Shown: positions 21,811 through 43,345 of the stretch, piece by piece | How positions within the stretch are numbered: position 1 is the stretch's first letter | How the letters are laid out: each line of letters opens with the position of its first letter | IMG/VR virus record: IMGVR_UViG_3300030376_004823 | Span: 3,917 to 67,916 of that record | Reading direction: 5' to 3' (one strand) | DNA: 64,000 nt | Origin: a virus | Lineage: Duplodnaviria > Caudoviricetes | Position numbers and translations under genes: made by a program | Notes under the pieces: model-generated | What the model saw: the letters and a program-made list of their open reading frames with translations, nothing else | What the model was told of the DNA's origin: nothing | Databases searched by the model: none

Positions 21811-22094
21811 AGCCAAAGCATTACGACATGAAGATTCCCCCAGTGGAATTTATTGTAGCCAACCAAATACCCTTCTTGGAGGCTAACGTCATAAAGTATG
21901 TGTGCAGACACAAAATGAAAGGGGGGAAGCAGGATATCCTGAAAGCAATCGAATACCTGCAATTCATAATTAAAGATCAATACAATGAAAGTAACGTTCT
22001 TCAAGAACCTCTACGACAAGAACAGCCCACACCACGTAGACATACATACGGCTTTGGAGCGAATCCGACAGGGCCAATCGAAAACCACGATTGA
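21807..22094 (+). CDS. DUF3310-family protein
   Basis: PKHY...PVEFI...F...NVIKYVCR...KGGKQDILKAIEY. Confidence 0.8.
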   Translation: MKPKHYDMKIPPVEFIVANQIPFLEANVIKYVCRHKMKGGKQDILKAIEYLQFIIKDQYNESNVLQEPLRQEQPTPRRHTYGFGANPTGPIENHD

Positions 22095-28660: not shown

Positions 28661-31065
28661 TGCTTCACTATTCTTTTTCTTGTAACCCTACCTCCGTGAC
28701 GAATGACAATCTGGTAGGTAGAGCTTGGAAGGTGAGTAAGGTCAATCCCGTAACTTGTGATTACCGCATCAACTCTTTGACCTGTAAGGGAGTAAACCTC
28801 CGCCTCAAACCCCTGTGGAGAGTGGACTATAACCTGTCCGCTTGTTGGGTTGGGTAAAACCCTTATTGAGTACTCGCTTTCCGATACATCGGTAACCCCC
28901 ATCTCGCAGTAAGAGTACATCTCCTGACACACCCCATCCCACTCCTGATTGCAGCAGTAGGGGTCCACGTCGATTACCCATAGATAGCAATAGTCGTTAG
29001 CCCAATAAGGGTCTCCAGGATCTCCAATGCACCCAGCGTCATACAAGCAAGACTCGTTGTCTGGTGTGTTGGCCTCTGAGTCGTAGTTGAATGCGTCTAT
29101 GTCCATGCACCCAACAACCACTGGGATGCAGCTACCGTTATCTACGTTGGCCTCCTCCTGGAAGTTAAGCGCCTCAGGATCAGTGCACCCGAACAAAGCA
29201 AGAGTAGAACAGCTTCCGTCATCATAGTCAGCCTCGTATCCCTGAGTGTAGTATTCCAAGTATCCAGCCTGAGTGCATCCTGCAGCGTAGTAACAACTCT
29301 CGTCTTCAGTGTTAGCTAACTCACTGTAGTTCTGTGCGTTAGAGTCCATACACCCATATACAAACTCTTCACAAAGGTTTCCGCAGTATGTTGTGGCTGT
29401 GTAGATATATGGGAATGGAATTACGCTCCATTGAGAAACGTCTAGAATCTCATCCCCAGACGGTCCGTCAAGCGTAAACCCGCACTGAGCTACAGTAAAT
29501 AGAGACTGCGGGGTAGAGAAAAAATAAAGCTCAACTTCTTCATTGGAAGCCAAGTAGAGGTCAAAGGATTTGCTTATCCCGTCTTCTGGACCCATCTGGT
29601 ATTGTGGCGATAGCCAGTCCCCTTGCTTCAATCCTACCCAACTACCAAACCATCCGTCACCAACTCCGTCAGTAAGGGTTAGCGTGTAAACACAAGAGTC
29701 TGGTTGCTCCTCTACGTTAGCCTCTGGGCTGTAGTTGTAGTACGCCGTGTCTATACATCCGTACACCACTGGGGTTTCGCAAAGCAAATCAACAAACACG
29801 GTGGCATCTGGGTTGTACTCCAGATAGTCTGGATCTCCGCACCCCACCAAGTCCTCTATGTTTTGACACACAGGAGCAGGGAAAGAAGCCTCTATGTTGT
29901 AGCCAAAGTTTGTGCTTTCTGTTGGTAGTGACCATATCTCTTCACCACAGGCTTCCACTATCACTGTTCCATCCTCTCCGCCCCACTGAGATCCATTCAT
30001 CCCGTCACCATACGAGTCTAAGACAAGGATTTGAATTTCACTCCCTATAGATACGCAAGTGTTTGTTACAATCGGTATCCCCATGGGGGCGCCAGATAGG
30101 TCTCCTGTGTTGACTGAGGTTATAATTCCCCCTTGAGTTAGGTCTACTAGACCCCAAGCGGTTTCTGCTGGGTAGTTGTCTGGAATTACAGTTACAGAAA
30201 CCTCCGTCTCGGTTACGCTGCAGTTAGCGGACTCCACTACGTTGCACCCTTGATTAAAGTTAGCCCAGGGATTGTAGTTCGTGGCTGTAGAGTCGGTACA
30301 CCCAACTACAGATCCACAAGGAAAACAGCTCTCCCAACAAAATGTAGGGAGCGTCATTGCCCCCTCTACATTTAAGGTTCTGTTTACGAACCCCCATTCA
30401 TCAAACAGGAAGCAAGGGGAGTTTATTACTCCTGCTGGCATTTCTTGATACGTCCAATCATCCGCAGAAAACTTCCAGAGGTGATTGCCTAGCGGCATGT
30501 CAATGGTAACCTCCCATATCTCATCCCCGTCTAAGTCTTGCATTTGATTGCATCCACCGCACCACCCGTTCCAGCTTGTGTTTACCTCTGGGGTGACGAT
30601 ATCCTCTGGGTGCGGACCATTTAAATCCAACCTAAACCTTACGCTATATAGGCAGAAGTCATCAATAATCGCTAAAGGGTCGAAGTTGCTTGCCTCTTCA
30701 TCCATGCACCCAACAACTGGAGGGGGGCAAGGGAGTAGGTTGAACGGGACTTCCATTTGAGCAGAAGCGAAGTCATACACTCCGATGTCTAACCCGCAGC
30801 TGTTAGTCAGGGTAAAGAACCCCTCCCCGTACTGGCAGCATATTCCGTCACCAAACTCGTCGTATGCTACGAATGTATACTCACCAGCAGGTAGGTTAAT
30901 CAAAACCTCTTCTGCCACCCCTGAGGCCACAACGTTAGTGTCAGACAGTATCTCCCATGAGCTTTCGTCAGCGTATTGATCGGAAACAAAGTTTACGTTC
31001 ACCCAGCTCCCCTGAGCCATCATAGAAAAAGGGAGTAGTAGAAGTAGAGTTAGGAGTCTGTTCAT
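28657..31065 (-). CDS. T9SS type-A cargo: D..GDG beta domains, CBM48/20-like module, eight GCxD..A.NY repeats, Por-secretion tail
   Basis: Signal peptide. C-terminus IRVLPNPTSG...VYSLTGQ...IDLTHLPSSTY...KRIVKQ is a typical type-A CTD. Confidence 0.88.
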   Translation of the reverse strand: MNRLLTLLLLLPFSMMAQGSWVNVNFVSDQYADESSWEILSDTNVVASGVAEEVLINLPAGEYTFVAYDEFGDGICCQYGEGFFTLTNSCGLDIGVYDFASAQMEVPFNLLPCPPPVVGCMDEEASNFDPLAIIDDFCLYSVRFRLDLNGPHPEDIVTPEVNTSWNGWCGGCNQMQDLDGDEIWEVTIDMPLGNHLWKFSADDWTYQEMPAGVINSPCFLFDEWGFVNRTLNVEGAMTLPTFCWESCFPCGSVVGCTDSTATNYNPWANFNQGCNVVESANCSVTETEVSVTVIPDNYPAETAWGLVDLTQGGIITSVNTGDLSGAPMGIPIVTNTCVSIGSEIQILVLDSYGDGMNGSQWGGEDGTVIVEACGEEIWSLPTESTNFGYNIEASFPAPVCQNIEDLVGCGDPDYLEYNPDATVFVDLLCETPVVYGCIDTAYYNYSPEANVEEQPDSCVYTLTLTDGVGDGWFGSWVGLKQGDWLSPQYQMGPEDGISKSFDLYLASNEEVELYFFSTPQSLFTVAQCGFTLDGPSGDEILDVSQWSVIPFPYIYTATTYCGNLCEEFVYGCMDSNAQNYSELANTEDESCYYAAGCTQAGYLEYYTQGYEADYDDGSCSTLALFGCTDPEALNFQEEANVDNGSCIPVVVGCMDIDAFNYDSEANTPDNESCLYDAGCIGDPGDPYWANDYCYLWVIDVDPYCCNQEWDGVCQEMYSYCEMGVTDVSESEYSIRVLPNPTSGQVIVHSPQGFEAEVYSLTGQRVDAVITSYGIDLTHLPSSTYQIVIRHGGRVTRKRIVKQ

Positions 31066-31508
31066 TTTTTGGACTTTTCTATAGTTCTTCCTGCGAAGTA
31101 TGCACCAAATGCAGTGAGCATAAGTATCTGAAGCAGATCTACATAGCTGTCCTTTACGTTGAAGGGCCAGTTGTCCATGCTGTCAGCAACCATCGTAAGC
31201 ATAAACATCACCATAAGTGAGATTAGAGTGATGGGGCGAATTAGCTTAGCGAGCTTTACGTCACTCCCCATATCCGCTTTCCATCGCTCGGTCACTTGCT
31301 TTTGGGCCTCCACTTCTTGCTGCTGCTTTAGCTTCTCAAACTCCAACTTGTCCTCCATGGATACGTCTGGCTCCTTGTCCACTAGGTTTTTTACCACCCC
31401 CAGAACTCCTTTTTCTGGAAGTAAATCCCCAACCTTCTCTGCCAGCGCGGGAACCTTAGTGCTCAACCAGGCCCCTAGCGCCGTGTCTTTAATCTTCTTT
31501 CCGCTCAT
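31062..31508 (-). CDS. Putative holin
   Basis: Two C-terminal TM helices ending FGAYFAGRTIEKSKK. Start moved to ATG 31508. Confidence 0.65.
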   Translation of the reverse strand: MSGKKIKDTALGAWLSTKVPALAEKVGDLLPEKGVLGVVKNLVDKEPDVSMEDKLEFEKLKQQQEVEAQKQVTERWKADMGSDVKLAKLIRPITLISLMVMFMLTMVADSMDNWPFNVKDSYVDLLQILMLTAFGAYFAGRTIEKSKK

Positions 31509-34500
31509 TGTCGTATATCTCTTGTAGTATGTCAAGCAAAACCTTTGTGTGGTTTCTAAACTGCCCTCTGCTTATCTCTATGGCGCTGTTGTAGTTTCCA
31601 GCTATGTCGTTGAGCGCTTCTATCTTCTCTTCATCGTCCATCTTCGCGTACTTTTCCGTGGCCATAAAAGCCTCCACTTCCTTGTACCGCTCTTTGCCCG
31701 ATGCCGCCATTAGCCTGTTCATCTGCTCTGTATTCAGATAAACTCTCTCGGCCATAAAGTCATTGTCTTTAGTCCAAGTGTAGTCCTTGTTCATTCTGGA
31801 TATCATAGCGAGATGCTTCTTCTTAATGTTCGGGACATTCATCTTTCTCTTCTCTGCATACCCAGGAGTTCCTACCACCTTGGTCAAGTCTTCGGTCTGC
31901 TCGTAAAGCCTGTATATTTCGTTGGACACTGAGTCCGCCTCACCCTGACGAGACTTAGTGATATCGAAGAGCTGATATGCAATTCCGTTGTTGCCTCTGG
32001 GGGTCTGCTTAATTGGCTCTCCCTTCCAGTTGACTCTAACTGGGACGTCACCCAAACCAAAGGTTCTGTCCTTGATGGTGTATGCCATCCTCTCAACAAG
32101 CCTTTCTCCAAGGCTCATGTCCTTTGTGATCCTTGTGTCTGGCAGATACTCTCTCGTGCCCCTGTATATCGCACTAAGCGTGTTGGGGAAGGCGGTAGCA
32201 GAAACAGCTTGGAATGTGGTTCTAAACCAGTTCTCGAAGTTCTTCTCGAAGTCAGTAGCGTCAGCAGAAGAGATAACATCTACGAGCGTGTTCATTCCTT
32301 GCATGAAGCTCTGGTCCATCATATATGCAATGGAGGAGAACGCACCCACGCCGAACGAATCTTGCAGTGCGTGGATCGGGAAGTCGAGACCGCTGTAGTC
32401 TCTCTTCTTCAGCTCCTCCTTATCTGCACCCTTTATGATTGCACCCATGATGGCCCCCATCACGCCCAGCTTTGTATACGAAATAAACCTGTCGTCGGGC
32501 TGCTTAGTAGCATCTCCTCCAGACATAAATCTTTGAAGCCCAGTTACATTGATGCTGTTCGGTGGGAACTGATCGTAAGCTAGGTTCTTTTCTTCATCCT
32601 CATCCCACTCTATAGCACCAGAGATCAACCCCTCTTTTAGGAGCATTACTGCCGTCTGAGACACCATGCTTCCAACGACCAGCTTACCGAAGTTTTGAGC
32701 AGCCTCACGAGCGTCTCCATTCTGGAGGTTCTTCATGATTCTCGGACCAGCGATGTACGGAGACACGTAGGTAAGGGTATCGATCAGAATGTTCGCAGGA
32801 GTCCTTACGTAAGGTAAGTTGGATCTAATCAAGAACTTAGCCATAGCCCTGCCGTCCGCTCCAGGAATCCAGTCAAACGCCTTGGTAAACATTCTCTCAA
32901 AGAATGAAACCGCATCCTCTGCAGCCTTAGATGCTCCAGTCTGCTCCTGATAAGTGAGCTTTCTGCCCTCTCTTGCGGCTGCTTCCTGAGCCCTCTTAGT
33001 TGGATGCTTAATAAACTGAGCAAGGGATTCTCCTTCAAGGCCCTGTGCGACACCAGCTTGATAAAGCTCAATGCCCTCAACCCCCCTCCTGAAAGGAACG
33101 TCACCCAAAGACAGGAATCGGAACATGACTTCAGCTGGAATGCCAAGAGTACCTTGAACCAATAGCTTTAGCCTTTGACTTAAAGGCGCTTTTCCATCTG
33201 GCCCCATAGGTAGGTCTCCCTTACCCATGGCTGAAGCAAGAGATCTAAAGGGGGCAAAACCCCTGTGTACTCTCCACTCTGAAACATCTTTTTCTTGACC
33301 CGTAACGATGCCGTCCAGGGCTTCAACAAAACCAGAACCGAACTTTCTTATGCCGTACATATAAGCATTAATAGAATAGTTCCTTTTCATCGGAGACTCG
33401 ATACCAAACATGTTGATCAGCCTTTCTATTGGAAGAGCTATTGCGTCTACACCAATCTTTCCGATCGCATTGATCATGTTTGCCCCTACGTTCGTAATCT
33501 GAGACATCGGAGTAAGAAGGTTGCCCTGAATAAGCATGGTTCCGATCTGGCCCCACCCCCTTTCAATAACCCCGTTTGCAAATGTGTCTAACCTGCGTTC
33601 AGCGTCCTTTACCTCTTCCGTTTTGTTTTTAAGCTCAACGTCAACGTCTTCACCAGAGATCGCCCTCCTCACGAGGTCTTCGTGTTCGGCCTGAAGTCGA
33701 AACAAGTCTCCAGACATGTCTTGTAGCCTAGCTTGTTGTTCTGAGCTTAGGCTGTTCCCCCTTCTTTCTACCTCTCTTTTTATAATAGCCTCAATTCCAG
33801 CTGGAGACGCGGACTTTAGTTCTCTAAAGTGCCTAAGAAGTCTACCAGCGGTAGTTCCGATTGCGGCAGCCTCAGCAATGATATCGGGAATAGCGTCGAG
33901 TTCCCCCCTCGCTACCGCCCTGCTTATCATTTCCGCAGAAGCCAATACACCGAGATCGTCGTTTCTTTCTTGTAGTCTTCCTAAACCATCCCCCGTCATA
34001 ATGTGGATCAACTCTGCATCAGTCATATCCTTTAGGTCCGCTTTCAGGTCTTTTAAAATCTGAGGGGAGAAGTAATTCCTTGGGTTTTCAAGTATCTGCT
34101 TTTTTACAGTGGTAAACCTTCTCGCATTACGACCAGCAGTTCTTCTCAGTTTAAGCATACCAGATGCCATTTCGTCTGCCCGAAGCATGTTCTCCGCAAC
34201 CTCGCTTTCGTTGAGAGCAACCCTGGATTCTATGGGCATGTTGTCGTAGGCCTCCTCTAGGTCACGTCTGTTTTGAAACTCGATTCCATTTCTCTTGGAG
34301 AAAGCCTCAAACCTAGAAACAGCCCTGTCGTACTTCGGGCCTCGCTTTACCCTTTTCCCTCTTTGCTCCTCAGTCTCCATTCTACCTCTATCCAAAATCG
34401 GATCGTCGAAGGCGTAGTACTCGATATCGCCCCTCAAGTAAACCACACTCCCCACTATAGTCGCTTCAGAAGCAGACTTTATTGCACGACCAGATGCGTC

Positions 34501-37500
34501 AACAAATACGTTGTGCTTGAATGGATTGAAGAACGCCTTAACCCCATCAAAGTTCATTGCGCCAAGGTCGTCGGATAAGAACTCCCCATTTACGCTTGCC
34601 ATAGGAAACTTGTTTTCCTGGAACGTAACAATTTTTTGTCTTGCGTTCTGGTTAACAAACAGATCTGGGTTCTTGACCATTACTGCAGCAGCATACCTAA
34701 GGGCTTCCCCAGAGGCTGTCTTATCATGCATAGTCTGAACAGGAACCTTTTTGCTCTTCATGACGTTTAGGTTTAGCCTTACGCCGACCCTTTGACCTTG
34801 GTTAACAACCGCGTCCTTAGCCATGATCCTTCTGGAGGTAGCGTCAGTCATCAAGGCCTCTTCAACCATCTCTTTGTTTATGACCATGTTAGGCCTTACA
34901 GTCAGTCCTTCGATTTTATTTCTGTATCTATTGAGCCTTGAGTCTTCAGAGTTTACGGTATTGCTGTGCGGGAAATCGAGCTTAAGCTGTTCGCTTGCCA
35001 TCTCGTTGTCTTCGGTTAAGACCTCCGCGTAAGTAACGTAGGGTTTTCTAGTGTCTGAGTCATCAACACCCTCGAAGAATTCAAACCCATACTCCGTAAC
35101 TACCTCCCCTGTTTTCTGATCAAGGCTTTGACTCGTCCCGAAAATCATTTTAGCAATAGCAGCATCAGATATTTTGTCCGACGTTTGAGCGTCTGCAAAC
35201 ACAAGCTGCCCGAACTGAGCTGGAGAAATACCCATTGCGGATGCCCCCATATTTATTGCACGGGTAGCCGTTCTTCTTATCCTTTCATCACTAGCGAAGT
35301 CAGGATTCGTGAACTCCCCGCTAAGTTTCTTTAGGTTGTCCTTATACCCCTTAGTCGTTTTTTCGTCTGCAGCAACAGCCTCGGTAAGCTTATCTAGATA
35401 GCTAATTACAGTTTTTGCTTTGGCTAAAGCTCCCTCCCTGTTTACATCTATGTCAGCATCAAGAAGGGCGGTCCTAATCATAGGTCCAAGTGCTTCCCAC
35501 CCTTTTATGTTGTAGTCTTTTAATTTTCCTGATTTATTAGCGTCTTCAAGCTTGTTATATGCCTTTTTCATGCTCTTCAGCAGTTGTCTTTCTATGCTAA
35601 AGATTCTTTCAGATCTTGGAGAAAGAAGAGACATTGTTCTAAATATGTGACTGTCAACTGTAATTACGTCACTGAGTCTTGTGCCTTCTATGTTTTTAAA
35701 CCCTGGGTAAAACTCGCTGTTTAGGTTTAGTATCCAAGCACCAATCTTGTCACCGAATATTTCTTGAGACATTACCCTAGAATGCTTTCGTATTCCCTTG
35801 CCAGAGTACGGGGTCATAAGGACGGTAAGAAGAGATTGCATGTCTATGTTACCATCGGCGTCCAAAAAAGATGCGCCTTGCATTTGCTCCCTCAAAATCC
35901 TCTCTCCAGTTTTAGTCAGGTCAGAAAGTTGAATTAAACTATCTATGTCTCCAGCAAGTAGGGCCTCTACCTTTTTTAAGTTTCTTGCAATGTTGCCTCT
36001 GGATTGATACGATAGGCCCTTGACTTTACCCTTTTCAATAGCCTTTATGATGTCCGAACCAACTATTTCGTGGCCCCCTCTTCTTTTCTTGTTCTTTTCA
36101 GCCTCTTTAAGAATAGTAAGAGACTCTGATACGTTTACATTGCTTTTTATCTGCTGAGAGGTAATCCCGATAATAAGATTAGCTCTCGCTATGTTTTGAT
36201 CTGTAGATCCAGAAAGGTCTTGAGAATCAACCATTTGCTGAATCTTATCTCTAAGGGCGCCAGCGTAATTTTCAAAGAAGTCAACTGGATCCTTTCCAGA
36301 ACCGAAAATCAGTTCCCTGTCTTTCTTGCTCCCGTAAGTCCCAGCCATGAGACCTACAAGCTTTTGGCTTGGCTCCCCTTCAAGGGTGGATGCATACTGA
36401 GCAAGCATTTGTCTAGTAATAGACGCGCTACTAGGTTTTTTACCAGTAAGGCTGCCAAGCAAGGTTTTGGATAGATATCCTTCTGTAAGGAACCTAGAGA
36501 CTGTCTCAATATTATCTGAAAGAAAAAGTCCCCTTAAAGCGGAAGATTCCATCTCGTCCTTAATGCTGGACATCTCTACGCCGTTCTCTTTTGCTGATCT
36601 TTCTACAACTTCAGAGACCTTATCCATAAACATCTCTGCTTTGGCAATGTCCCTCTGTACGTAATTTGCGTTAAACCCCTTGTCTTCGTAATTCTTCAGT
36701 TTACCGTAAATCCTTCTAAGCTTAGACCTTATTCTATTGTATACTGGAGCCGTTATCGCACCGTCCTCGTAGGCTTTGTTTACTCTTTTGCCGAATTCCG
36801 CAACCCTTCCAGATGGAACAAGGGAGTCTGAGGCCATTTCGTCATCGTTAAATCTCTTGATTTTATCGACATTGATGTCGTTGCCATTCATGTCTTCAAA
36901 CCCGTAGAAGTGAAGGTCCTTACCTTCCTTTGTCACCTTTCTCCACCAGTTTATGAAATGGAATGAGTCGTTAAACGTCTTGGTTATGGTTTCGCTTCCA
37001 ATGTCTTTTTTAAATCCTAGATCGTACTTGTAGAAAGTTTTCTCCATTGTGATCTCAACCTTTCCGTCCTCGTTGGTTGGAATCCTATACGGGGAGGTCA
37101 GTTTTTTTGAGGCCATTTCCTGGTCTACCTTGGAGTCCTCCGTAAGGTTGAACTCTCCATTTTCCATCACCCTATTAAAGTTCTTGGCGATGTTAATTAG
37201 CTGCTTGGCGTCGTTAAGTGAGATTACACTAGAGTCCTTTCCGAACGCCTTCATGACCACATCGTTTACGATGGACATAAAGGAATTCATAACACTCATC
37301 TTAACTTTTGGGCCATCGCCCATCTCTCCGTCAGCTATGGCAGACATGATTTCAACAATCACCTCTTCAATAACCTTAGCCTCCTTTTGAGACTCTGTAA
37401 GGTTTTTGCTTCCCTTGTAGTTTTCTGTGTATTGATTTTCTTTTGAAGCAACCCTTTCCATAAGGGCCTTGTCTTTAGATACAAGTGCCTGTAAAGCCTT

Positions 37501-40500
37501 TCTGGTGGCCCGAATGGTCTTCATTCCAGCCTCAGATTCTGCAAGCTTTCCTACTGAATCACCAAGAAAAGCGTGGAATATCTCTTCTGATACAGTGGCT
37601 CCAAACGATTTAGTTCTTTTAAATCCTTGTTCGGCCTCATTTTCTATGTTTTGGTTTATTTGATCTATGTTAATGTGGATGACCTTAGTCCTCCTGTTAC
37701 AAAGACCACCCCATTCGCCCCGATTGTAGGCCTTAGCGGCGTCAGTATTGGTGTAGAATATGACCGAATACCCCAGTTTGTTCGCCCACTTTACAAGTCT
37801 ATTAGACCACTTAGTGTCCGTAGCAGAAAGGCCAAGGTCCTCTTTCCGCATGCTTGAGCTTCCATCCTTATTGACCCTGCCTCTAACCGCTCCTTCTGGA
37901 AGAGCTCCTTCAGGCCCGTACATGCCCTCATATTCACGCTTGGGCTCTACCTTTTCTGTTGGCTTTGCAGCCTCGGCCTCAATGTCTTCAGTTTCAAACG
38001 CCTGTGCTTCACCCCTTTCTGTGAACTCGTCTGATGTTATTTCGTTTCCATCAGCGTCTTCGTACTTCTCAGAAGGCATGAAAGAGAACGCAATCAGGTC
38101 TCCGTTCTCATCCCTTATAACGGACATGAAGTCAGGGTTATCTCCGACCTCACCAATAAATGTAGGTCCTTCCCCGTCAAACAGATTAATACTCCCGTCC
38201 CCTCTGACCAATCCGTCCTTGTGTGCGACAGTGTCCTGGCCAAACTCTTTAGCAAAAGCTGCGGCTTGCTCCCTGGTCATGCCCTCTACAAGGAAGCTGT
38301 TCTCGCCGTTTCCGTCATACCTCCCCGAAATTCTGTGGTACTTCAGACCCCTGCTTTTTAGCCAAGCCTCTGCACGTCTGTTTGCTGCAGCGTTGGACAT
38401 CTCTCCGTCAGCCTGAGCGAACGGGTTCTCAGCCGTAAGCATTGCGAAATTGTCCGAGTTTAATATCTCGTCAATAGATGTAGCCAGTAGAGTGGACTCC
38501 CCTTTAAGTATTTTAGATATAGGTAGGGCCCTTACTGCGTCAAGAAACCACTGCACAGACTTTCTGGCTTCCACTTGGGCCTCAACCCTCTGATTAACGT
38601 CAGTAGAAGTAATGCCTTGGTTAGCCCCAGTGAGGTCCGCAATCTGATTTCTTATTGCGGTGGCCTTTTCCGTTGCCGCCTCAACCGCAGAGCTTCCCTG
38701 AACTTCAGCGTCAGATATGGCGTCCTTGGCTTTCTGGTAGTCAGCAACAAGAGACGAAAGCTTTTCCCTTTTACCCTTTAGCTCTTCCAGCCTGTTTTTT
38801 GTATTGTCATGCTTTCTTTTGTTGTAGGCATCGGAATCCTTAGCCCCCTCCATTCTCTTGTCTGTCCGCTCAAGGTCTGAGATCTCTCGATCAATCTCGC
38901 TAATCGCCTTCTGACCATCCTCAGCGAAGGCTTGGTTTTCTTGTTCTTGAGTGGGGGTCTTAGCCTCCTCCCTTACTTTGGTCTCCAGAGCAAACCTCTC
39001 TCTAACCATCTCCGTCATGGTAGATCTTAGGTCAGATTTTGCTTGATTGGACAGACCTTCCTTTGTTAGCTCCGATTTTATTCTTTCTATGCTGATGTCC
39101 AGCTCCCGCATCCTTTTTGTCTCTTCGGGGTTTGTTATGGATGCGTTTCTGTAGAACCCCTTTCTGGACTCTCTAATTTTTCTGGCTTCTTTCTCTATGG
39201 ATTCTGCAGTCTCTATGAGAGACTTTTTTTGGCCGTCAGACTCAGCCGTCTTGGCTGCAGCCCTAGACCTATTGGCTCTGGCATCAAGATCAGACGCCAC
39301 CGCGCCCCTGGAGTCAGATGATGACTCTGAAAGGGCAGCAACTGAGTCATCTCTTCTCTCAGAGTCCAGATCTATAGAGGAAGCTTTGTTCTTAGATATT
39401 TTTCTGTCTACAGCTCTGTTTACTGCAGCGGAAAGAGCTGACTCGTCGTTATTAGACATAGCCAATGTGCCATCTTGAAATGCGTCAGTTACCGCGTCGT
39501 CAATCTGTTCGTTTACAGCAGTGTACCCTCTTTTTCTAAATGCGCCTACAACCCTTGATCTAATGTCTTCAAATGGAACGACTTGATTAGTAGTAACCTC
39601 ACCTAGTCTGTTTTCCATCTCAACGTCGTTGTTTATCTCCACGTTGTTTATGAGCTGACCACTATTAAGGTGGTCGATCATCTCTCTCGAAGAAACAGCT
39701 TGGCCGTTGATTTTGTATTCGGGTCTTTTGTATCCAGCAAGAGAAGCGAACTCAGGGGCAAACACGTTAAACGATCCAGCACCCGCTTCTCCTATTGCTT
39801 CTGCATAAACCTCGAATCCGTCAACATGACCATCAGTAACAAGCTGCGCTGCGGTTTCTCCGATAGCGGCACCCGTCATCTCAACACCGAGCGAGGTTGC
39901 TTTTCTTCCGACCCTAGATGCCATTCCGACTCCGCCCTTGAGAGCCGCACTCCCAGCCTTTCCAGCTATTCCCCCCGTAATTCCGTCGATAACACCAATA
40001 GTAATGCCTCTCGCAAGAGCCTTAGCCCTGACAGAAGACATGATCGACTCGTCGTTAAGTATTCTTTTTACGTTCTCTTCTGTAGCTGGTTGATCGCCAA
40101 GATTGTCAAGTATGGCTTCTGTAATTACGTTGTTCGCTTCCACAGAAGCTCCAACTCCACCCATGAACCCAGGAAAAAACCCAAGTATACCTCCAACAGC
40201 AGCTCCTGGTGCGGCTCCCACTCCAGCGCCAGCCACAGCTCCTATGCCTCCACCTGTGGCCGCTCCAGCTGCCGCAGAAACCGCAGCGCCAGCTAATCCA
40301 GACGCAATAGCAGACCTCTCTAACCCAAAGATTGCGCCAGCTTGCTGAGCAAAAGAATTTACGATAGTTTCAACGGCAGCTTGATTGCTAGAGAAAAGCT
40401 TCATTTTCTCCCAGCTGCTCATGTCCTTCATCTTCTCGTTGAGGGCACGAGCTTCATCAGACATGCCGATTCCAGACTGCCTGTCGCTAAGCATTCCCAC

Positions 40501-40980
40501 GAGCTGGTCCATGTTGGTGTCAGAAAGCTCTCCACCAAAACCAGCAACCGTAGTTTCAGTGGTCATTTGCCCCGTCTCGAATCCCTCGCTTGCAGCCCTA
40601 CGCATGTCTCCAAAAAAGTCCATGGCGTTATACATAAAGGACTGCTCATCAGCCTCTGGGTCATAGAACATGTCCTCAAGACTCATAAAGAGCTGACTTT
40701 CCCCATCAGCTTGAAGGGACGGCTCTGGCTCTGTAGGAGATGGTTCCTTCGACTCTCCAGAACTTGAAATTACACTGCTTGGATTGGTTGGGTCCTGAGC
40801 AAAAACGAATGTAGAATCTTCTTTTTTTTTATTCTCTTCAGAAGCCATGCCCAAGACCGCCCTAGCAGTGTTTGGGTTCATGTTAATTCTATAATCGTTT
40901 ACAAGGACATTATAAATAAAATTATCGTCCTTTCCAGCAGCCCTGAACTGGGCTATTATGTCGTTATACTTTTCGTCCAT
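31489..40980 (-). CDS. Giant (3163 aa) ejection / polyvalent virion protein
   Basis: Last of three cargo-position genes. Has a Gly/Ala zipper, a DUF3293-like LTAENP domain, a zincin-like EEIFH, a FGDKIG...TVDSH HhH-like domain and an LPD38-like PYVRTP.NI C-terminus. Confidence 0.75.
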   Translation of the reverse strand: MDEKYNDIIAQFRAAGKDDNFIYNVLVNDYRINMNPNTARAVLGMASEENKKKEDSTFVFAQDPTNPSSVISSSGESKEPSPTEPEPSLQADGESQLFMSLEDMFYDPEADEQSFMYNAMDFFGDMRRAASEGFETGQMTTETTVAGFGGELSDTNMDQLVGMLSDRQSGIGMSDEARALNEKMKDMSSWEKMKLFSSNQAAVETIVNSFAQQAGAIFGLERSAIASGLAGAAVSAAAGAATGGGIGAVAGAGVGAAPGAAVGGILGFFPGFMGGVGASVEANNVITEAILDNLGDQPATEENVKRILNDESIMSSVRAKALARGITIGVIDGITGGIAGKAGSAALKGGVGMASRVGRKATSLGVEMTGAAIGETAAQLVTDGHVDGFEVYAEAIGEAGAGSFNVFAPEFASLAGYKRPEYKINGQAVSSREMIDHLNSGQLINNVEINNDVEMENRLGEVTTNQVVPFEDIRSRVVGAFRKRGYTAVNEQIDDAVTDAFQDGTLAMSNNDESALSAAVNRAVDRKISKNKASSIDLDSERRDDSVAALSESSSDSRGAVASDLDARANRSRAAAKTAESDGQKKSLIETAESIEKEARKIRESRKGFYRNASITNPEETKRMRELDISIERIKSELTKEGLSNQAKSDLRSTMTEMVRERFALETKVREEAKTPTQEQENQAFAEDGQKAISEIDREISDLERTDKRMEGAKDSDAYNKRKHDNTKNRLEELKGKREKLSSLVADYQKAKDAISDAEVQGSSAVEAATEKATAIRNQIADLTGANQGITSTDVNQRVEAQVEARKSVQWFLDAVRALPISKILKGESTLLATSIDEILNSDNFAMLTAENPFAQADGEMSNAAANRRAEAWLKSRGLKYHRISGRYDGNGENSFLVEGMTREQAAAFAKEFGQDTVAHKDGLVRGDGSINLFDGEGPTFIGEVGDNPDFMSVIRDENGDLIAFSFMPSEKYEDADGNEITSDEFTERGEAQAFETEDIEAEAAKPTEKVEPKREYEGMYGPEGALPEGAVRGRVNKDGSSSMRKEDLGLSATDTKWSNRLVKWANKLGYSVIFYTNTDAAKAYNRGEWGGLCNRRTKVIHINIDQINQNIENEAEQGFKRTKSFGATVSEEIFHAFLGDSVGKLAESEAGMKTIRATRKALQALVSKDKALMERVASKENQYTENYKGSKNLTESQKEAKVIEEVIVEIMSAIADGEMGDGPKVKMSVMNSFMSIVNDVVMKAFGKDSSVISLNDAKQLINIAKNFNRVMENGEFNLTEDSKVDQEMASKKLTSPYRIPTNEDGKVEITMEKTFYKYDLGFKKDIGSETITKTFNDSFHFINWWRKVTKEGKDLHFYGFEDMNGNDINVDKIKRFNDDEMASDSLVPSGRVAEFGKRVNKAYEDGAITAPVYNRIRSKLRRIYGKLKNYEDKGFNANYVQRDIAKAEMFMDKVSEVVERSAKENGVEMSSIKDEMESSALRGLFLSDNIETVSRFLTEGYLSKTLLGSLTGKKPSSASITRQMLAQYASTLEGEPSQKLVGLMAGTYGSKKDRELIFGSGKDPVDFFENYAGALRDKIQQMVDSQDLSGSTDQNIARANLIIGITSQQIKSNVNVSESLTILKEAEKNKKRRGGHEIVGSDIIKAIEKGKVKGLSYQSRGNIARNLKKVEALLAGDIDSLIQLSDLTKTGERILREQMQGASFLDADGNIDMQSLLTVLMTPYSGKGIRKHSRVMSQEIFGDKIGAWILNLNSEFYPGFKNIEGTRLSDVITVDSHIFRTMSLLSPRSERIFSIERQLLKSMKKAYNKLEDANKSGKLKDYNIKGWEALGPMIRTALLDADIDVNREGALAKAKTVISYLDKLTEAVAADEKTTKGYKDNLKKLSGEFTNPDFASDERIRRTATRAINMGASAMGISPAQFGQLVFADAQTSDKISDAAIAKMIFGTSQSLDQKTGEVVTEYGFEFFEGVDDSDTRKPYVTYAEVLTEDNEMASEQLKLDFPHSNTVNSEDSRLNRYRNKIEGLTVRPNMVINKEMVEEALMTDATSRRIMAKDAVVNQGQRVGVRLNLNVMKSKKVPVQTMHDKTASGEALRYAAAVMVKNPDLFVNQNARQKIVTFQENKFPMASVNGEFLSDDLGAMNFDGVKAFFNPFKHNVFVDASGRAIKSASEATIVGSVVYLRGDIEYYAFDDPILDRGRMETEEQRGKRVKRGPKYDRAVSRFEAFSKRNGIEFQNRRDLEEAYDNMPIESRVALNESEVAENMLRADEMASGMLKLRRTAGRNARRFTTVKKQILENPRNYFSPQILKDLKADLKDMTDAELIHIMTGDGLGRLQERNDDLGVLASAEMISRAVARGELDAIPDIIAEAAAIGTTAGRLLRHFRELKSASPAGIEAIIKREVERRGNSLSSEQQARLQDMSGDLFRLQAEHEDLVRRAISGEDVDVELKNKTEEVKDAERRLDTFANGVIERGWGQIGTMLIQGNLLTPMSQITNVGANMINAIGKIGVDAIALPIERLINMFGIESPMKRNYSINAYMYGIRKFGSGFVEALDGIVTGQEKDVSEWRVHRGFAPFRSLASAMGKGDLPMGPDGKAPLSQRLKLLVQGTLGIPAEVMFRFLSLGDVPFRRGVEGIELYQAGVAQGLEGESLAQFIKHPTKRAQEAAAREGRKLTYQEQTGASKAAEDAVSFFERMFTKAFDWIPGADGRAMAKFLIRSNLPYVRTPANILIDTLTYVSPYIAGPRIMKNLQNGDAREAAQNFGKLVVGSMVSQTAVMLLKEGLISGAIEWDEDEEKNLAYDQFPPNSINVTGLQRFMSGGDATKQPDDRFISYTKLGVMGAIMGAIIKGADKEELKKRDYSGLDFPIHALQDSFGVGAFSSIAYMMDQSFMQGMNTLVDVISSADATDFEKNFENWFRTTFQAVSATAFPNTLSAIYRGTREYLPDTRITKDMSLGERLVERMAYTIKDRTFGLGDVPVRVNWKGEPIKQTPRGNNGIAYQLFDITKSRQGEADSVSNEIYRLYEQTEDLTKVVGTPGYAEKRKMNVPNIKKKHLAMISRMNKDYTWTKDNDFMAERVYLNTEQMNRLMAASGKERYKEVEAFMATEKYAKMDDEEKIEALNDIAGNYNSAIEISRGQFRNHTKVLLDILQEIYDNERKED

Positions 40981-41036: not shown

Positions 41037-42431
41037 TTATTCCTCACCAAAATACTCAAGCTCCTCCGACTCGTCATAATAATCATAGTCAGTCTGGGGT
41101 TGAGGAGCGTTGCTTTCAGGAGAGCCCTGCGACAAGTATGATCCAACTATGTCTTCTCCTCTAGCGTCTGTAAGCGCCTTCTGAATGTCATAAAGACTCA
41201 TGCCGAGCTCATTACGAAGATATTGATCCATCAAGTTGTAGTCTTGAGTTTCCCGAAGCAATGGTTGAACTCCAGCCTCACCTTGAACCTCAAGGTTCAT
41301 GACGAACTGTCCGTTTTCATTTATAGAGAATCCTGTGACAGATGCGTTATTTACTGCGCTTACATCTCCGTCATCGTCGGTCACCACAAAGTCACCTGCA
41401 AAACTAGTGTTTGTAATCGGAACTGTAACTCCACTAGGGACAGCAACATCAGTGGTGTTGTCAGTTGAAAGCTTTATGTTGTCTACGTTTTTCTGAAAAT
41501 CAGATCTTACTATATCCGCTGCGGAAGGGCGTGAGCCCCTTGGGGAGGTAGTGTCTTTCTTTTTTCTAAACCTTTTAGCCCCCTCCATTGCCCAAGCGTC
41601 TATTGCATCATCCATTGAGCCAGGCATATCTAAGAGCATTTCGTATGCTTTGTCCCCGTGCTTTTCTTTCAGGCCCTGAACAAGAGCTCTCTGTTCTTCG
41701 TCTTTGATGTCGGAATCTACGTACCACCTTGCTACATCGATCTTAACCCTGTCATCTACACTTGCCATAGCCTCCATGGCCTCCTTGGCTTCCCCGCTAG
41801 AATCAAGGTCTCTGGTTTTAATCTGAGAGGTAAAGTAAAACCCTGGGTCTCTGACATCGTCAAGAACCAGCTCCTCGTCAAATATGTTGGTTCTCATGAT
41901 TCTAGGGTCGTTTACGGACACCCATCCGTCTTTCCCGTTGTTCATGATAAGCCTTCCGTCATCATCAAACTTGACACTAAACATGTCAGAGTCAAGCTCT
42001 TGCATTTTATCTACATAATACTGCTCGTCATGGGCATCATGCTTACCCATGTTTATCCACTGCTCATTCTTCTTTCCTCTAGAGTAATCCAGATTGTCCT
42101 GAAGTTTAGCGTGAGTTTGAGTGTAGTATGCCTCTGCTTCTTTTATACCAAAAGCAATCTCCTCTATTCCCTTTTGATACTTGGCCCGACCTTCTTCGGT
42201 CTTCATTAGCTCGTTCTTCTGACCCTGAAGATCCATAGCGGCCTTCTCAAACGCTTTCGCGTGAGCATCCCACATATTGGCGTAGCTAACCCTTTCTGGG
42301 TCGGTGGTGTTTGCTGAAGTCTTCTGCAGGGCGTGATCAGCCAAGACCTTAGCCTCAAGCTGTTTGTTCAGCTCTCCAAGGTAATCTGTTTTTGCTGGCT
42401 TTCCTCCAAGGTCTACGGCTCCGTATATCAT
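41037..42431 (-). CDS. Putative ejection (cargo) protein
   Basis: Helical, acidic, 464 aa; lies between the tail-stabilisation gene and the giant gene. Confidence 0.55.
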   Translation of the reverse strand: MIYGAVDLGGKPAKTDYLGELNKQLEAKVLADHALQKTSANTTDPERVSYANMWDAHAKAFEKAAMDLQGQKNELMKTEEGRAKYQKGIEEIAFGIKEAEAYYTQTHAKLQDNLDYSRGKKNEQWINMGKHDAHDEQYYVDKMQELDSDMFSVKFDDDGRLIMNNGKDGWVSVNDPRIMRTNIFDEELVLDDVRDPGFYFTSQIKTRDLDSSGEAKEAMEAMASVDDRVKIDVARWYVDSDIKDEEQRALVQGLKEKHGDKAYEMLLDMPGSMDDAIDAWAMEGAKRFRKKKDTTSPRGSRPSAADIVRSDFQKNVDNIKLSTDNTTDVAVPSGVTVPITNTSFAGDFVVTDDDGDVSAVNNASVTGFSINENGQFVMNLEVQGEAGVQPLLRETQDYNLMDQYLRNELGMSLYDIQKALTDARGEDIVGSYLSQGSPESNAPQPQTDYDYYDESEELEYFGEE

Positions 42432-43345
42432 CAGGCTTCTCTGTCAAATTTGTTGAACAGCTTACGAGCGATGTCACTTTGCCTAGCAATAGCAGCAGCT
42501 TGCTCAGGATTAAGGACGTACTCGCCCCCAGTAAGTTCGCCGATCTTTGCGCCCCTTTGCATGACATCTATCGGATTTTTTCTGTGAGAGAACTCCCCAG
42601 GGGTCTTCTTTACCTTGCCACCCTTTTCGTTTCTACGAAACCCTCCAGTGGGATCTTGCTGATAGCCCAATATGCTCGAAAGGACAGCGTCGCCCTCGCC
42701 TGATTCAGCCAACTTAGCAAAGTAATCTGACGCCGTATCCGAATTCCCAAGGTCTCCAAACTCTGTCCCAGCTATATTCCCCGCAGTGACGGCCAGCTGA
42801 GAGAACAAATCCGTCCCCGCTTGAGCTTTGTCTTGACCCGCCTGAAACTTACCCTCAAGCGCACTTGCTGCTTGTTGTCTAGCCAAGCTCAAGTCAGAGC
42901 TCACGTCTCTTCTCCTTGCCGACCGAAGCATTTGCTCCTGCTGACCAACGTTTAGCATCGCCCCAGTTTTTCTTGCGTACTCGTCAGCGGCTATTTTAGC
43001 CATATTCGATGCCGCCATCTGCTGCTGAGCCCCAAGCCCTCCCAGGATTGCTCTGGCCCCACCAGCCTTTAAGGCTCCTACAGCCGTACCAGAAGACCGC
43101 AAGGCCTCCTGCCTTTGCATGTCAGAGGTAGGGTCTTGCATGGCATACTGCATATACTTACGCATAGTGGGCCCCATGCTGTAAAGACCCTCTCTTTGTT
43201 TTTCAAGCCTAGCTGAGTCAGCCTTGCCTTGATTTAACAGCTTGCCGTACTGATCCATTCGATCGTCGGCTCTCTTTCGATCACCTAAGAAGTTGACTCC
43301 AGCGCCAACCGCCTTGCCGATCATCATCATAGTAAGTGGATCCAT
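42431..43345 (-). CDS. Putative ejection (cargo) protein
   Basis: MDPLTMMMIGKAVGAG N-terminus, A/Q/G-rich helices, C-terminal KGGKV...ELTGGEYVLNP. Confidence 0.6.
   Translation of the reverse strand: MDPLTMMMIGKAVGAGVNFLGDRKRADDRMDQYGKLLNQGKADSARLEKQREGLYSMGPTMRKYMQYAMQDPTSDMQRQEALRSSGTAVGALKAGGARAILGGLGAQQQMAASNMAKIAADEYARKTGAMLNVGQQEQMLRSARRRDVSSDLSLARQQAASALEGKFQAGQDKAQAGTDLFSQLAVTAGNIAGTEFGDLGNSDTASDYFAKLAESGEGDAVLSSILGYQQDPTGGFRRNEKGGKVKKTPGEFSHRKNPIDVMQRGAKIGELTGGEYVLNPEQAAAIARQSDIARKLFNKFDREA

What the first reader, a model, noticed from the sequence alone, without database searches (positions are those of the whole stretch)
31489..40980. 3163-aa ejection protein is a mosaic of enzyme-like domains where crAss-like phages carry virion RNA polymerase subunits
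Seen in order: a Gly/Ala zipper (about 40150-40310); an LTAENP...G.Y...E.SF...A..FA..F.Q domain (about 38180-38450); a zincin-like SEEIFHAF with downstream EE (about 37320-37800); FGDKIGAW..NL...TVDSHIFR, resembling HhH-GPD glycosylases (about 35620-36200); an RVGVRLN...FNPFK..F domain resembling a widespread small stand-alone phage protein (about 34430-34800); and an LPD38-like C-terminus. No G-x-D-x-D-x-D polymerase motif in a DPBB-like context. Known: polyvalent proteins are injected early and carry counter-defence domains. Inference: the RNAP payload has been replaced by an injected anti-defence toolkit, consistent with host sigma-A promoters on the early genes.
Basis: partly seen in the sequence, partly recalled or inferred. 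Interest (0 to 1): 0.75.

Follow-up and report, generated by a model that had tools for sequence, protein, structure and literature searches.

The report
Giant modular phage ejection polyprotein
A 3163-residue virion protein of an uncultured marine Bacteroidota phage is a chain of exchangeable enzyme-like modules, not an RNA polymerase, and conserved short motifs at the module borders look like cutting sites for its own unusual metalloprotease-like domain.

Summary
The ORF (31489-40980, minus strand, 3163 aa) is intact.
- a Gly/Ala zipper;
- DUF3293 (Pfam, E 4e-12);
- a zincin-like module;
- a cassette with the HhH-GPD glycosylase fold;
- a Phage_L5_gp82 domain (E 2e-8).

The 'LPD38-like' C-terminus is not supported. 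It is an unclassified, all-helical module of about 890 aa.

There is no RNA polymerase. I found no DFDxD motif, no beta-barrels in models of residues 1030-3163, and no RNAP family in six frames. The single DxDxD is not conserved.

New observations:
- The zincin module aligns with canonical HExxH...E modules of other giant phage proteins, but this clade carries an invariant EExxH.
- A motif, [RKM]-[AS]-S-x-x-[LIV] (exactly EMAS-xx-L four times here), sits in the low-confidence linkers between modules. It also marks the borders of swapped cassettes.
- The motif is enriched 4.3-fold in EExxH-bearing giants and is not enriched in HExxH-bearing ones.
- Short relatives consist of the N-terminal module plus the C-terminal module alone.

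Best reading: a virion-borne polyvalent ejection protein in which a conserved N+C scaffold carries exchangeable cargo. It is probably cut into separate proteins. The 'anti-defence' role and the 'replaced RNAP' idea remain untested.

The parts
31489..40980 (-). Giant ORF, 3163 aa (P0001), stop codon included
   Evidence: It has 1 Cys and 0.7% His.
39595..40650 (-). N-terminal module (aa 111-462), matching phrog_32588. It is retained in the short-form relatives.
   Evidence: E 2.4e-24; P0240, P0241 and P0245 align to aa 121-484.
40126..40338 (-). Gly/Ala zipper (aa 215-285), the only hydrophobic and possibly membrane-active stretch
38491..39363 (-). Highly charged region that looks like coiled coil (about aa 540-830). 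It was not folded.
   Evidence: composition. The coiled-coil reading is inference.
38227..38439 (-). DUF3293 domain (aa 848-918), shared with the 3694-aa Elemovirus structural protein
37159..37845 (-). Zincin-like module (aa 1046-1274): one helix, three strands, then helices. EExxH lies at aa 1132-1136 (window 37573-37587) and the distal Glu at aa 1206 (window 37363-37365).
37099..37119 (-). Linker motif 1: EMASKKL (aa 1288-1294), in a stretch with pLDDT below 50
36853..37059 (-). Small beta domain (aa 1308-1376) with invariant F..HFINWW
36820..36840 (-). Linker motif 2: EMASDSL (aa 1381-1387), pLDDT below 50. It marks the upstream border of the swappable cassette.
36535..36552 (-). Variant motif MESSAL (aa 1477-1482). 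In 59 relatives this position reads [RKM][AS]S..[LI].
35029..36393 (-). Cassette with the HhH-GPD fold (aa 1530-1984). Invariant K1745 is at window 35746-35748 and invariant D1776 at 35653-35655.
34984..35004 (-). Linker motif 3: EMASEQL (aa 1993-1999), pLDDT below 50. It marks the downstream border of the swappable cassette.
34441..34803 (-). Phage_L5_gp82-like beta domain (aa 2060-2180)
34153..34173 (-). Linker motif 4: EMASGML (aa 2270-2276). It sits at the edge of a low-pLDDT stretch, and homology to the short forms starts 4-6 residues later.
31492..34152 (-). Conserved all-alpha C-terminal module (aa 2277-3163). It is present in almost all relatives and stands alone or fused to the N module in short forms.
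43359..47732 (-). Upstream muzzle-like virion protein (1457 aa). It places the giant gene in the tail and cargo block.
41037..43345 (-). Two unclassified genes (304 and 464 aa) between the muzzle-like gene and the giant gene
31062..31535 (-). Holin-like gene. Its start overlaps the giant ORF's 3' end by 47 nt.

Best explanation
This is a virion-packaged, ejected 'polyvalent' protein of an uncultured marine Bacteroidota podophage. It is not an RNA polymerase.

Its conserved scaffold has two parts: an N-terminal module with a Gly/Ala zipper and an all-helical C-terminal module of about 890 aa. By analogy with the N- and C-terminal domains of N4 gp50 and with podophage ejection proteins, these would act in membrane insertion, ejection or packaging.

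Accessory cargo modules lie between the two parts:
- DUF3293;
- a zincin-like module with EExxH...E in place of HExxH...E;
- a small beta domain;
- an exchangeable cassette, which here has the HhH-GPD glycosylase fold with a conserved Lys and Asp;
- an L5_gp82-like domain.

The modules are joined by flexible linkers that carry a conserved [RKM]-[AS]-S-x-x-[LIV] motif.

I infer that the precursor is cut at these motifs, most likely by its own zincin-like module. Cutting would take place in the head or after ejection. It would release a fragment of about 1290 aa that holds the N module, DUF3293 and the zincin module, then the small beta domain, the glycosylase-like enzyme, the gp82-like domain and the C module as separate proteins.

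My odds:
- modular virion or ejection protein without RNAP: about 0.8;
- zincin homology: about 0.85;
- HhH-GPD fold: about 0.7;
- active glycosylase: about 0.35;
- the motif is a processing site: about 0.45;
- the zincin module does the cutting: about 0.35.
For: Context:
- The gene lies in the late minus-strand block after a muzzle-like gene (Pfam crAss_MUZ_C, phrog_14478) and before a holin-like gene.
- Elemovirus has a syntenic 3694-aa 'structural protein' that shares the DUF3293 region.
- The protein has one Cys in 3163 aa.

Modularity:
- BLAST coverage over 112 relatives shows blocks shared by about 25, 65, 100, 68 and 104 of them.
- Residues about 1400-1990 are replaced by unrelated sequence in half of the loci. 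The breakpoints lie at about aa 1354-1430 and 1998-2009.

Zincin module:
- The model shows one helix, three strands and then helices, with EExxH on the first following helix and E1206 on a later one.
- In 193 aligned modules, position 1132 is E in 135 and H in 52, position 1133 is E in 186, position 1136 is H in 192, and position 1206 is E in 190.
- Distant carriers of the module also hold LPD38, RadC, GNAT and DUF7178 domains.

HhH-GPD cassette:
- VIA-align gives Z 10.4 to 3n0u (203 of 209 residues aligned), 10.1 to 7u07, 9.1 to NTHL1, 8.8 to MagIII, and 7.5-8.4 to AGOG, MutYX, EndoIII and MutY.
- hhalign puts DVITVDSHIFRTM on EndoIII residues 133-145, which include D138.

Polyvalent kinship by fold:
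- Foldseek against BFVD gives hits at E 1e-6 to 1e-4 to proteins named ART-PolyVal, Zeta toxin, RelA/SpoT and LPD-containing.

Linker motif:
- EMAS occurs four times; none of 2000 shuffles gives as many matches to E[RKM]AS.
- All four copies are followed by xxL.
- Their codons differ at synonymous sites.
- Three copies lie inside stretches of pLDDT below 50 and the fourth sits at the edge of one.
- Aligned columns are strongly conserved, for example [R40 K12 M6][A48 S9][S58]xx[L42 I14] of 59 sequences.
- The motif is seen 288 times against 67 expected in 126 EExxH giants, and 7 times against 14.7 expected in 41 HExxH giants.
- It is absent from the phage's other ORFs.

Scaffold:
- Short forms consist of the N module plus the C module, and the C-module homology begins at aa 2277-2279, just after the fourth motif.

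Literature:
- Iyer et al. 2017 (PMC5512222) proposed that zincin peptidase domains cut polyvalent proteins into functional units.
Against: - There is no proteomic or biochemical evidence that this protein is in virions or is cleaved.
- The first zinc-binding His is a Glu, so the module may bind another metal or be inactive.
- No structural database match was obtained for the zincin module. It was only folded as part of a 1200-residue model, and other domains filled the hit lists.
- The Pfam HhH-GPD model finds nothing in the genome at E<=10, and sequence profiles find no glycosylase in the PDB. A Z of about 10 for a helical domain is only moderately strong.
- The link between the motif and the EExxH variant is confounded by shared ancestry.
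- N4 gp50 also carries a peptidase-like domain but is packaged uncut (PMC5512222).
- Residues 1-1029 were not folded.
Confidence: 0.6

Rival explanations
1. It is a crAss-type virion RNA polymerase, or a carrier of one, that is too divergent to recognise.
For: - The gene sits after a muzzle-like gene, where crassviruses encode cargo and vRNAP proteins.
- Crass vRNAP proteins are also mostly helical.
- Residues 1-1029 were not folded.
- One DxDxD is present at aa 1841.
Against: - There is no DFDxD, the motif that Drobysheva et al. name for all crAss-like vRNAPs.
- DADID at 1841 lies in a non-conserved, gap-rich stretch.
- The models of aa 1030-3163 contain no six-stranded barrels.
- No RNAP appears in the Foldseek or VIA lists or in sequence searches against the PDB.
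- RNA_pol_Rpb1_2 is absent in six frames, while the controls were positive.
- The unfolded N-terminal third has no D.D.D at all.
Confidence: 0.03
2. It is a purely structural ejection or internal-core protein. The enzyme-like motifs are relics or structural features, and the protein works uncut as a single chain.
For: - The most conserved parts are the helical C module and the N module, neither of which has enzyme motifs.
- There are weak BFVD matches to 'internal core protein' entries.
- The zincin motif lacks its first His.
- The alternative cassettes show no known domains.
- N4 gp50 is packaged uncut.
Against: - E1132, E1133, H1136 and E1206, and K1745 and D1776, are invariant in 59 sequences that are only about 35% identical overall. 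This points to selection on active-site-like residues.
- A motif conserved inside otherwise variable linkers is hard to explain for a passive chain.
Confidence: 0.2
3. The [RKM]-[AS]-S-x-x-[LIV] motif is real but is not cut by the zincin module. It could be a site for a separate head-maturation protease, since assemblin-type enzymes cut at Ala|Ser. It could also be a short docking motif for the portal, the capsid interior or a chaperone.
For: - The x-A-S core resembles the herpesvirus assemblin consensus (recalled knowledge). Assemblin-like peptidases occur in polyvalent proteins.
- The tie between the motif and the EExxH clade may reflect ancestry alone.
Against: - No prohead protease family was found among the ORFs that were scanned.
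- The motif is absent from the capsid, portal and other structural ORFs, where a general maturation protease would usually also cut.
- Short forms without the zincin module lack the motif.
Confidence: 0.25

Closest known systems
Phage-type polyvalent proteins (Iyer, Burroughs, Anand, de Souza, Aravind 2017, J Bacteriol; PMC5512222)
   Same: - Many unrelated domains sit in one huge polypeptide encoded among late virion genes.
- A zincin-like peptidase acts as the hub domain.
- Module content varies from mosaic to mosaic.
- There are fold-level matches to ART-PolyVal, Zeta-toxin, RelA/SpoT and LPD-containing proteins.
- Distant carriers of the same zincin module hold LPD38, RadC and GNAT.
   Different: - None of the catalogued polyvalent Pfam domains matches this protein.
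- The peptidase motif is EExxH.
- The cargo includes a module with the HhH-GPD fold; the word 'glycosylase' does not occur in the main text of that survey.
- Module borders carry a conserved short motif.
Bacteriophage N4 gp50 (giant virion RNA polymerase, Schitoviridae)
   Same: - It is an ejected virion protein of about 3500 aa.
[quoted passage not shown]
- It contains a peptidase-like domain.
   Different: - The N4 payload is a T7-like RNAP, and none is present here (one search found nothing, though its controls were uninformative).
- No sequence or fold similarity to N4 proteins was seen.
- N4 gp50 is packaged uncut.
Crassvirus cargo and vRNAP proteins (PhicrAss001 gp45-gp50; phi14:2 gp66)
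   Same: - The genes lie downstream of the muzzle gene.
- They are cargo proteins that must unfold to exit through the tail (PMC10172136).
   Different: - They are several separate genes rather than one.
- They carry a DFDxD two-barrel RNAP, which is absent here.
- This phage's TerL is only marginally similar to those of Crassvirales.
HhH-GPD DNA glycosylases (EndoIII/Nth, MutY, MagIII, AGOG, Tm1821) and the QNG1/DUF2419 queuosine-nucleotide hydrolase
   Same: - The fold matches at Z 7.5-10.4 over nearly the whole target.
- A VDxH element aligns with EndoIII D138.
- An invariant Lys lies in the preceding hairpin-like G.K.GA motif.
   Different: - There is no Pfam or profile-level sequence match.
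- About 200 extra residues are inserted.
- There is no Fe-S cluster.
- The domain is embedded in a virion protein.
Elemovirus 3694-aa and Callevirus (phi38:1 gp101, 1691-aa) 'structural proteins'
   Same: - They are the largest genes in the same place of the late operon in the nearest cultured phages.
- The Elemovirus protein shares the DUF3293-to-zincin region at 29% identity.
   Different: The C module and the N module were not detectable in them.

Membership tests
Polyvalent proteins (Iyer et al. 2017) | Two to fifteen unrelated domains in one polypeptide of a phage or conjugative element | tested here: met
   At least seven modules were delimited by Pfam, models and homology blocks.
Polyvalent proteins (Iyer et al. 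2017) | Encoded among late or virion genes and delivered into the host with the DNA | tested here: inconclusive
   The gene context fits. Packaging and delivery cannot be tested with these tools.
Polyvalent proteins (Iyer et al. 2017) | Carries catalogued polyvalent domains (LPD families, MPTase-PolyVal, ART-PolyVal and others) | tested here: not met
   No such Pfam family matches P0001 at E<=1. Kinship shows only by fold and through distant zincin-module carriers.
LPD38 (PF18857) | Match to the Pfam model | tested here: not met
   No match in P0001 or in 35 C-module sequences at E<=1. The model does work on 2 of 32 distant giants, at E 5e-37.
Zincin-like metallopeptidase (gluzincin type) | HExxH on a helix | tested here: not met
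   The motif here is EExxH (E1132-E1133-x-x-H1136). The homologous position is His in 52 of 193 related modules.
Zincin-like metallopeptidase (gluzincin type) | Catalytic Glu, second His, and a third ligand Glu on a following helix | tested here: met
   E1133, H1136 and E1206 are invariant. They lie on model helices 97-117 and 167-191.
Zincin-like metallopeptidase (gluzincin type) | Core fold: N-terminal helix, three-stranded sheet, two C-terminal helices | tested here: inconclusive
   The DSSP order in the model fits. No structural match was obtained, because the module was only searched as part of a 1200-residue model.
HhH-GPD superfamily | Two-lobed helical fold | tested here: met
   Z 10.4, rmsd 4.0, 203 of 209 residues aligned to 3n0u. 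More than ten family members score Z 7.5-10.1. A Z of about 10 is only moderate for a helical domain.
HhH-GPD superfamily | Match to Pfam PF00730 or to sequence profiles of solved members | tested here: not met
   No match at E<=10 in six frames, with all 14 controls positive. No glycosylase was found in the profile search of PDB sequences.
HhH-GPD superfamily | Helix-hairpin-helix followed by a catalytic Asp (and a Lys in bifunctional enzymes) | tested here: inconclusive
   K1745 and D1776 are invariant. hhalign pairs the D1776 element with EndoIII 133-145, but over only 13 columns and at 2% probability. The 18-residue Lys-Asp spacing seen in compact relatives matches EndoIII only from my memory of K120 and D138.
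Two-barrel virion RNA polymerase of crAss-like phages | DFDxD catalytic motif | tested here: not met
   No DFD or D[FYWL]D.D occurs anywhere. The single DADID is not conserved.
Two-barrel virion RNA polymerase of crAss-like phages | Two double-psi beta-barrels | tested here: not met
   There are no barrels in the models of aa 1030-3163. Residues 1-1029 were not folded.
DUF3293 (PF11697) | Match above Pfam's gathering score | tested here: met
   47 bits against a cut-off of 25, covering the full profile length.
Phage_L5_gp82 (PF25735) | Match above Pfam's gathering score | tested here: met
   34.7 bits against a cut-off of 27. 23 of 35 relatives also match.

The most novel reading that the evidence does not exclude
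The giant protein is a DNA-phage 'polyprotein'. A cis-acting zincin variant, with Glu in place of the first zinc-binding His, would cut at [RKM]-[AS]|S-x-x-[LIV] sites. The cuts would release a set of independently acting injected proteins, one of them a virion-delivered enzyme of the HhH-GPD glycosylase type. The same sites would serve as the joints at which evolution swaps cargo cassettes. If so, this would give the first explicit cleavage-site grammar for polyvalent proteins.
Probability: 0.3. Interest if true: 0.8.

Novelty: new variant of a known kind. Interest (0 to 1): 0.58.

Why it matters
Polyvalent virion proteins are common but almost unstudied experimentally. The idea that their peptidase domains cut them into working units has had no predicted sites to test.

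This family supplies such sites. They are conserved, lie in linkers and coincide with module borders. They come with a matching peptidase variant and natural controls: HExxH relatives, and short forms that lack both the peptidase and the motif.

The family also shows a simple design rule, a fixed N+C ejection scaffold with exchangeable cargo in between. This could guide the search for what abundant marine Bacteroidota phages inject first. Here the candidate cargo includes a glycosylase-like enzyme, which would act on DNA or nucleotides before any phage gene is expressed.

Tried and rejected
**PDB and fold searches**
- phmmer of the whole protein and profile searches of three modules against PDB sequences gave nothing meaningful. 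The only hits were 14-3-3, AcrF2 and Msh3 at E 0.06-1.
- Foldseek of both 1200-residue-scale models against the PDB gave only generic helical repeats.
- VIA-align on the C-terminal model gave only helical hairpins with Z below 7.

**Comparisons with cultured relatives**
- hhalign of the C module against the Elemovirus giant protein found no relation.
- BLAST of the N-terminal 560 aa against phi38:1 gp101 found no relation.

**Family scans**
- Pfam scans of ten alternative cassettes and N-terminal parts from relatives gave no families.
- An NCBIfam scan gave nothing.
- The T7-type RNAP family search found nothing, but its controls were silent, so it is uninformative.

**Stand-alone and split forms**
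- The search for stand-alone zincin modules of 185-650 aa returned one fragment only.
- Apparent split genes such as P0115+P0232 and P0114+P0250 break inside domains. I take them to be assembly frameshifts, not natural splits.

**Technical failures and dead ends**
- Alignment A5 misplaced the last 240 residues and was discarded for A6.
- The ESM Atlas look-ups and the atlas fold library were unavailable.
- I looked for an alternative repeated motif in the HExxH clade. Only a weak 'LSK' signal appeared, and I did not pursue it.
- The DxDxD at 1841 was considered as a polymerase motif and rejected as chance.


Full report
**1. The object**

The minus-strand ORF at 31489-40980 is intact and encodes 3163 aa. 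The source is a single 67,916-bp IMG/VR virus record that CheckV rates as complete.

The gene lies in a long late operon. The order is: putative capsid and tail genes, a 1457-aa muzzle-like protein (Pfam crAss_MUZ_C at 31 bits; phrog_14478 at E 1.7e-110), two unclassified genes, the giant gene, a holin-like gene, and proteins with type IX secretion C-terminal domains. The secretion domains point to a Bacteroidota host.

The large terminase is 35-47% identical to those of Elemovirus, Callevirus (phi38:1), Maribacter phage Panino and an uncultured Caudoviricetes record. It touches Crassvirales terminases over only 17% of its length. The phage is therefore a distant cousin of crassviruses, not a member.

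The nearest cultured phages also carry their largest gene, annotated 'structural protein', at this position: 3694 aa in Elemovirus and 1691 aa in phi38:1.

**2.

Five of the six hold.

- **Gly/Ala zipper.** Residues 215-285 are the only hydrophobic stretch in the protein.
- **DUF3293.** Residues 848-918 match at E 4e-12.
- **L5_gp82.** Residues 2060-2180 match Phage_L5_gp82 at E 1.9e-8 and phrog_586.
- **Zincin-like module.** See section 4.
- **HhH-GPD-like module.** See section 5.
- **'LPD38-like' C-terminus.** This fails. The Pfam model matches neither this protein nor any of 35 family members at E<=1. It does match two distant giants strongly.

**3. No RNA polymerase**

Drobysheva et al. 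name DFDxD as the motif of all crAss-like virion polymerases. The protein has none. Its single D.D.D (DADID, aa 1841) lies in a gap-rich, non-conserved stretch.

I made two AlphaFold2 models:
- aa 2000-3163 from a 35-sequence alignment, mean pLDDT 72;
- aa 1030-2229 from a 59-sequence alignment, mean pLDDT 77.

Neither model contains a six-stranded barrel. Foldseek and VIA-align against the PDB list no polymerase, and the sequence and profile searches of the PDB list none either. The Rpb1 domain-2 family is absent in six frames, with positive controls. Residues 1-1029 were not folded, but they contain no Asp triad.

**4. The zincin-like module**

In 59 relatives that are only about 35% identical overall, E1132, E1133, H1136 and E1206 are invariant. 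The model places a helix, three strands and then helices, with EExxH on the first following helix and E1206 on a later one. This order is what Iyer et al. describe for zincin peptidases of polyvalent proteins.

A profile of the module found 129 representatives among 1.84 billion proteins, and almost all of them are giants of 2000-4500 aa. I aligned 193 modules. The first motif position is Glu in 135 and His in 52, and the other three positions are nearly invariant.

The module is therefore homologous to canonical HExxH...E modules, and this clade has fixed a Glu where the first zinc ligand normally sits. Distant carriers of the module also hold LPD38, RadC, GNAT and DUF7178 domains.

Foldseek against viral models returns proteins named ART-PolyVal, Zeta toxin, RelA/SpoT, PcfJ-like and 'large polyvalent protein associated domain' at E 1e-6 to 1e-4. 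These results place the protein among polyvalent proteins, although no catalogued polyvalent Pfam domain matches it directly.

**5. The HhH-GPD-like cassette**

Q..F..K.GA...N and T.D.H are invariant or nearly so in 59 sequences.

An exhaustive structural comparison puts HhH-GPD enzymes at the top for model residues 501-955, which are aa 1530-1984:

| Target | Z |
|---|---|
| Tm1821 8-oxoguanine glycosylase (203 of 209 residues aligned) | 10.4 |
| QNG1/DUF2419 | 10.1 |
| NTHL1 | 9.1 |
| MagIII | 8.8 |
| AGOG, MutYX, EndoIII, MutY | 7.5-8.4 |

hhalign's only alignment to E. coli endonuclease III pairs DVITVDSHIFRTM with residues 133-145, which include the catalytic Asp138.

Against membership, Pfam's HhH-GPD model finds nothing at E<=10, and the sequence profile finds no solved glycosylase. 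I therefore accept the fold (about 0.7) and treat enzymatic activity as open (about 0.35).

**6. Modularity and the scaffold**

BLAST coverage over 112 full-length relatives shows discrete blocks. In half of 26 viral contigs the HhH-like cassette is replaced by unrelated sequence of about 600 aa. The breakpoints lie near aa 1354-1430 and 1998-2009. None of the alternative cassettes has a Pfam match.

Shorter natural forms of 1430-1660 aa consist of the N-terminal module (aa 121-484) joined by an acidic linker to the C-terminal module, and homology resumes at aa 2277-2279. One such gene sits in the same place after a muzzle-like gene.

A 959-aa protein carries the C module alone.

So N+C is the conserved scaffold and the middle is accessory cargo. 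[quoted passage not shown] The C module is all-helical with many invariant polar residues and has no detectable known fold.

**7. A conserved linker motif**

EMAS occurs four times, at aa 1288, 1381, 1993 and 2270, against 0.35 matches to E[RKM]AS expected by chance. None of 2000 shuffles reaches four.

- Each copy is followed by x-x-Leu.
- The codons differ at synonymous sites, so the repeat is kept at the peptide level.
- Three copies lie in stretches with pLDDT below 50 between folded domains, and the fourth sits at the edge of one.
- The second and third copies flank the swappable cassette.
- The fourth lies 4-6 residues before the start of the C module as defined by the short forms.

In relatives the aligned columns are islands of conservation in otherwise variable linkers. 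One example is [R40 K12 M6][A48 S9][S58]-x-x-[L42 I14] of 59 sequences. At that position this protein reads MESSAL.

The pattern [RKM]AS..[LIM] occurs as follows:

| Set | Observed | Expected |
|---|---|---|
| 16 representative giants | 35 | 8.9 |
| 126 giants with the EExxH module | 288 | 67 |
| 41 giants with the HExxH module | 7 | 14.7 |
| short forms lacking the zincin module | 0 | not computed |

The phage's other ORFs contain no [EDQNST][RKM]AS, and the relaxed pattern [RKM][AS]S..[LIVM] occurs in them only at chance level.

**8. Interpretation**

Shown:
- the protein is a modular giant protein in the virion gene block;
- it has a zincin-homologous module, a module with the HhH-GPD fold, DUF3293 and gp82 domains, and no polymerase;
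- a conserved motif marks the module borders.

Inferred:
- the protein is packaged and ejected;
- the motifs are cleavage sites;
- the zincin variant cuts them, as Iyer et al. proposed in general for polyvalent proteins.

The correlation between the motif and the EExxH variant is confounded by shared ancestry. A separate maturation protease or a docking role remains possible. N4 gp50 shows that a peptidase-like domain does not guarantee cleavage.

**9. Verdict**

This is a new variant of a known kind, the polyvalent virion proteins. Its main value is that it turns the autoprocessing hypothesis into specific experiments with defined sites.

Noticed in passing
window 28657-31065 (-) and 4370-5638 (-): Two phage proteins end in type IX secretion sorting domains: Por_Secre_tail in the 802-aa protein and CHU_C (E 6.5e-18) in the 422-aa protein. 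This implies a Bacteroidota host and host-machinery export of phage proteins.
   Followed up: partly
window 55023-57098 (-): A 691-aa late protein has RCC1-like beta-propeller repeats (WD40_RLD, RCC1) fused to a region that matches virion structural protein phrog_10356. It is probably a tail fibre or receptor-binding protein.
   Followed up: no
window 31489-31535: The start of the holin-like gene (31062-31535, TTG start as listed) overlaps the last 47 nt of the giant ORF. The true start may lie further downstream.
   Followed up: no
L055 10001-13288 and L066 10001-13696: In two related viral contigs the C-module match contains one in-frame stop codon. This could be a sequencing error or stop-codon recoding. 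I left both contigs out of the alignments.
   Followed up: no
P0024, P0233: Close homologues of the giant protein are deposited under a 'Candidatus Bathyarchaeota archaeon' MAG. This looks like a phage contig that was binned into an archaeal genome.
   Followed up: no
L089 10001-14986; L088 10001-12880: Natural short forms exist. One is a 1661-aa protein (charged region plus C module) placed after a muzzle-like gene that has a Laminin_G_3 domain. The other is a 959-aa stand-alone C module. Both could serve as minimal systems for studying the scaffold.
   Followed up: partly
window 21985-23790 (+), 20050-20838 (+), 24995-26899 (+): The early or middle plus-strand block encodes a primase-helicase (BT4734-like N domain plus DnaB_C), a PDDEXK-like DUF3799 nuclease and a ribonucleotide reductase. 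No RNA polymerase of any type was found in the genome.
   Followed up: partly
HExxH-clade giants (P0150-P0228): Giants with the canonical HExxH module lack the [RKM]AS motif, but 10 of 41 carry four or more copies of 'LSK'. This may be a different linker or site motif for that clade.
   Followed up: no
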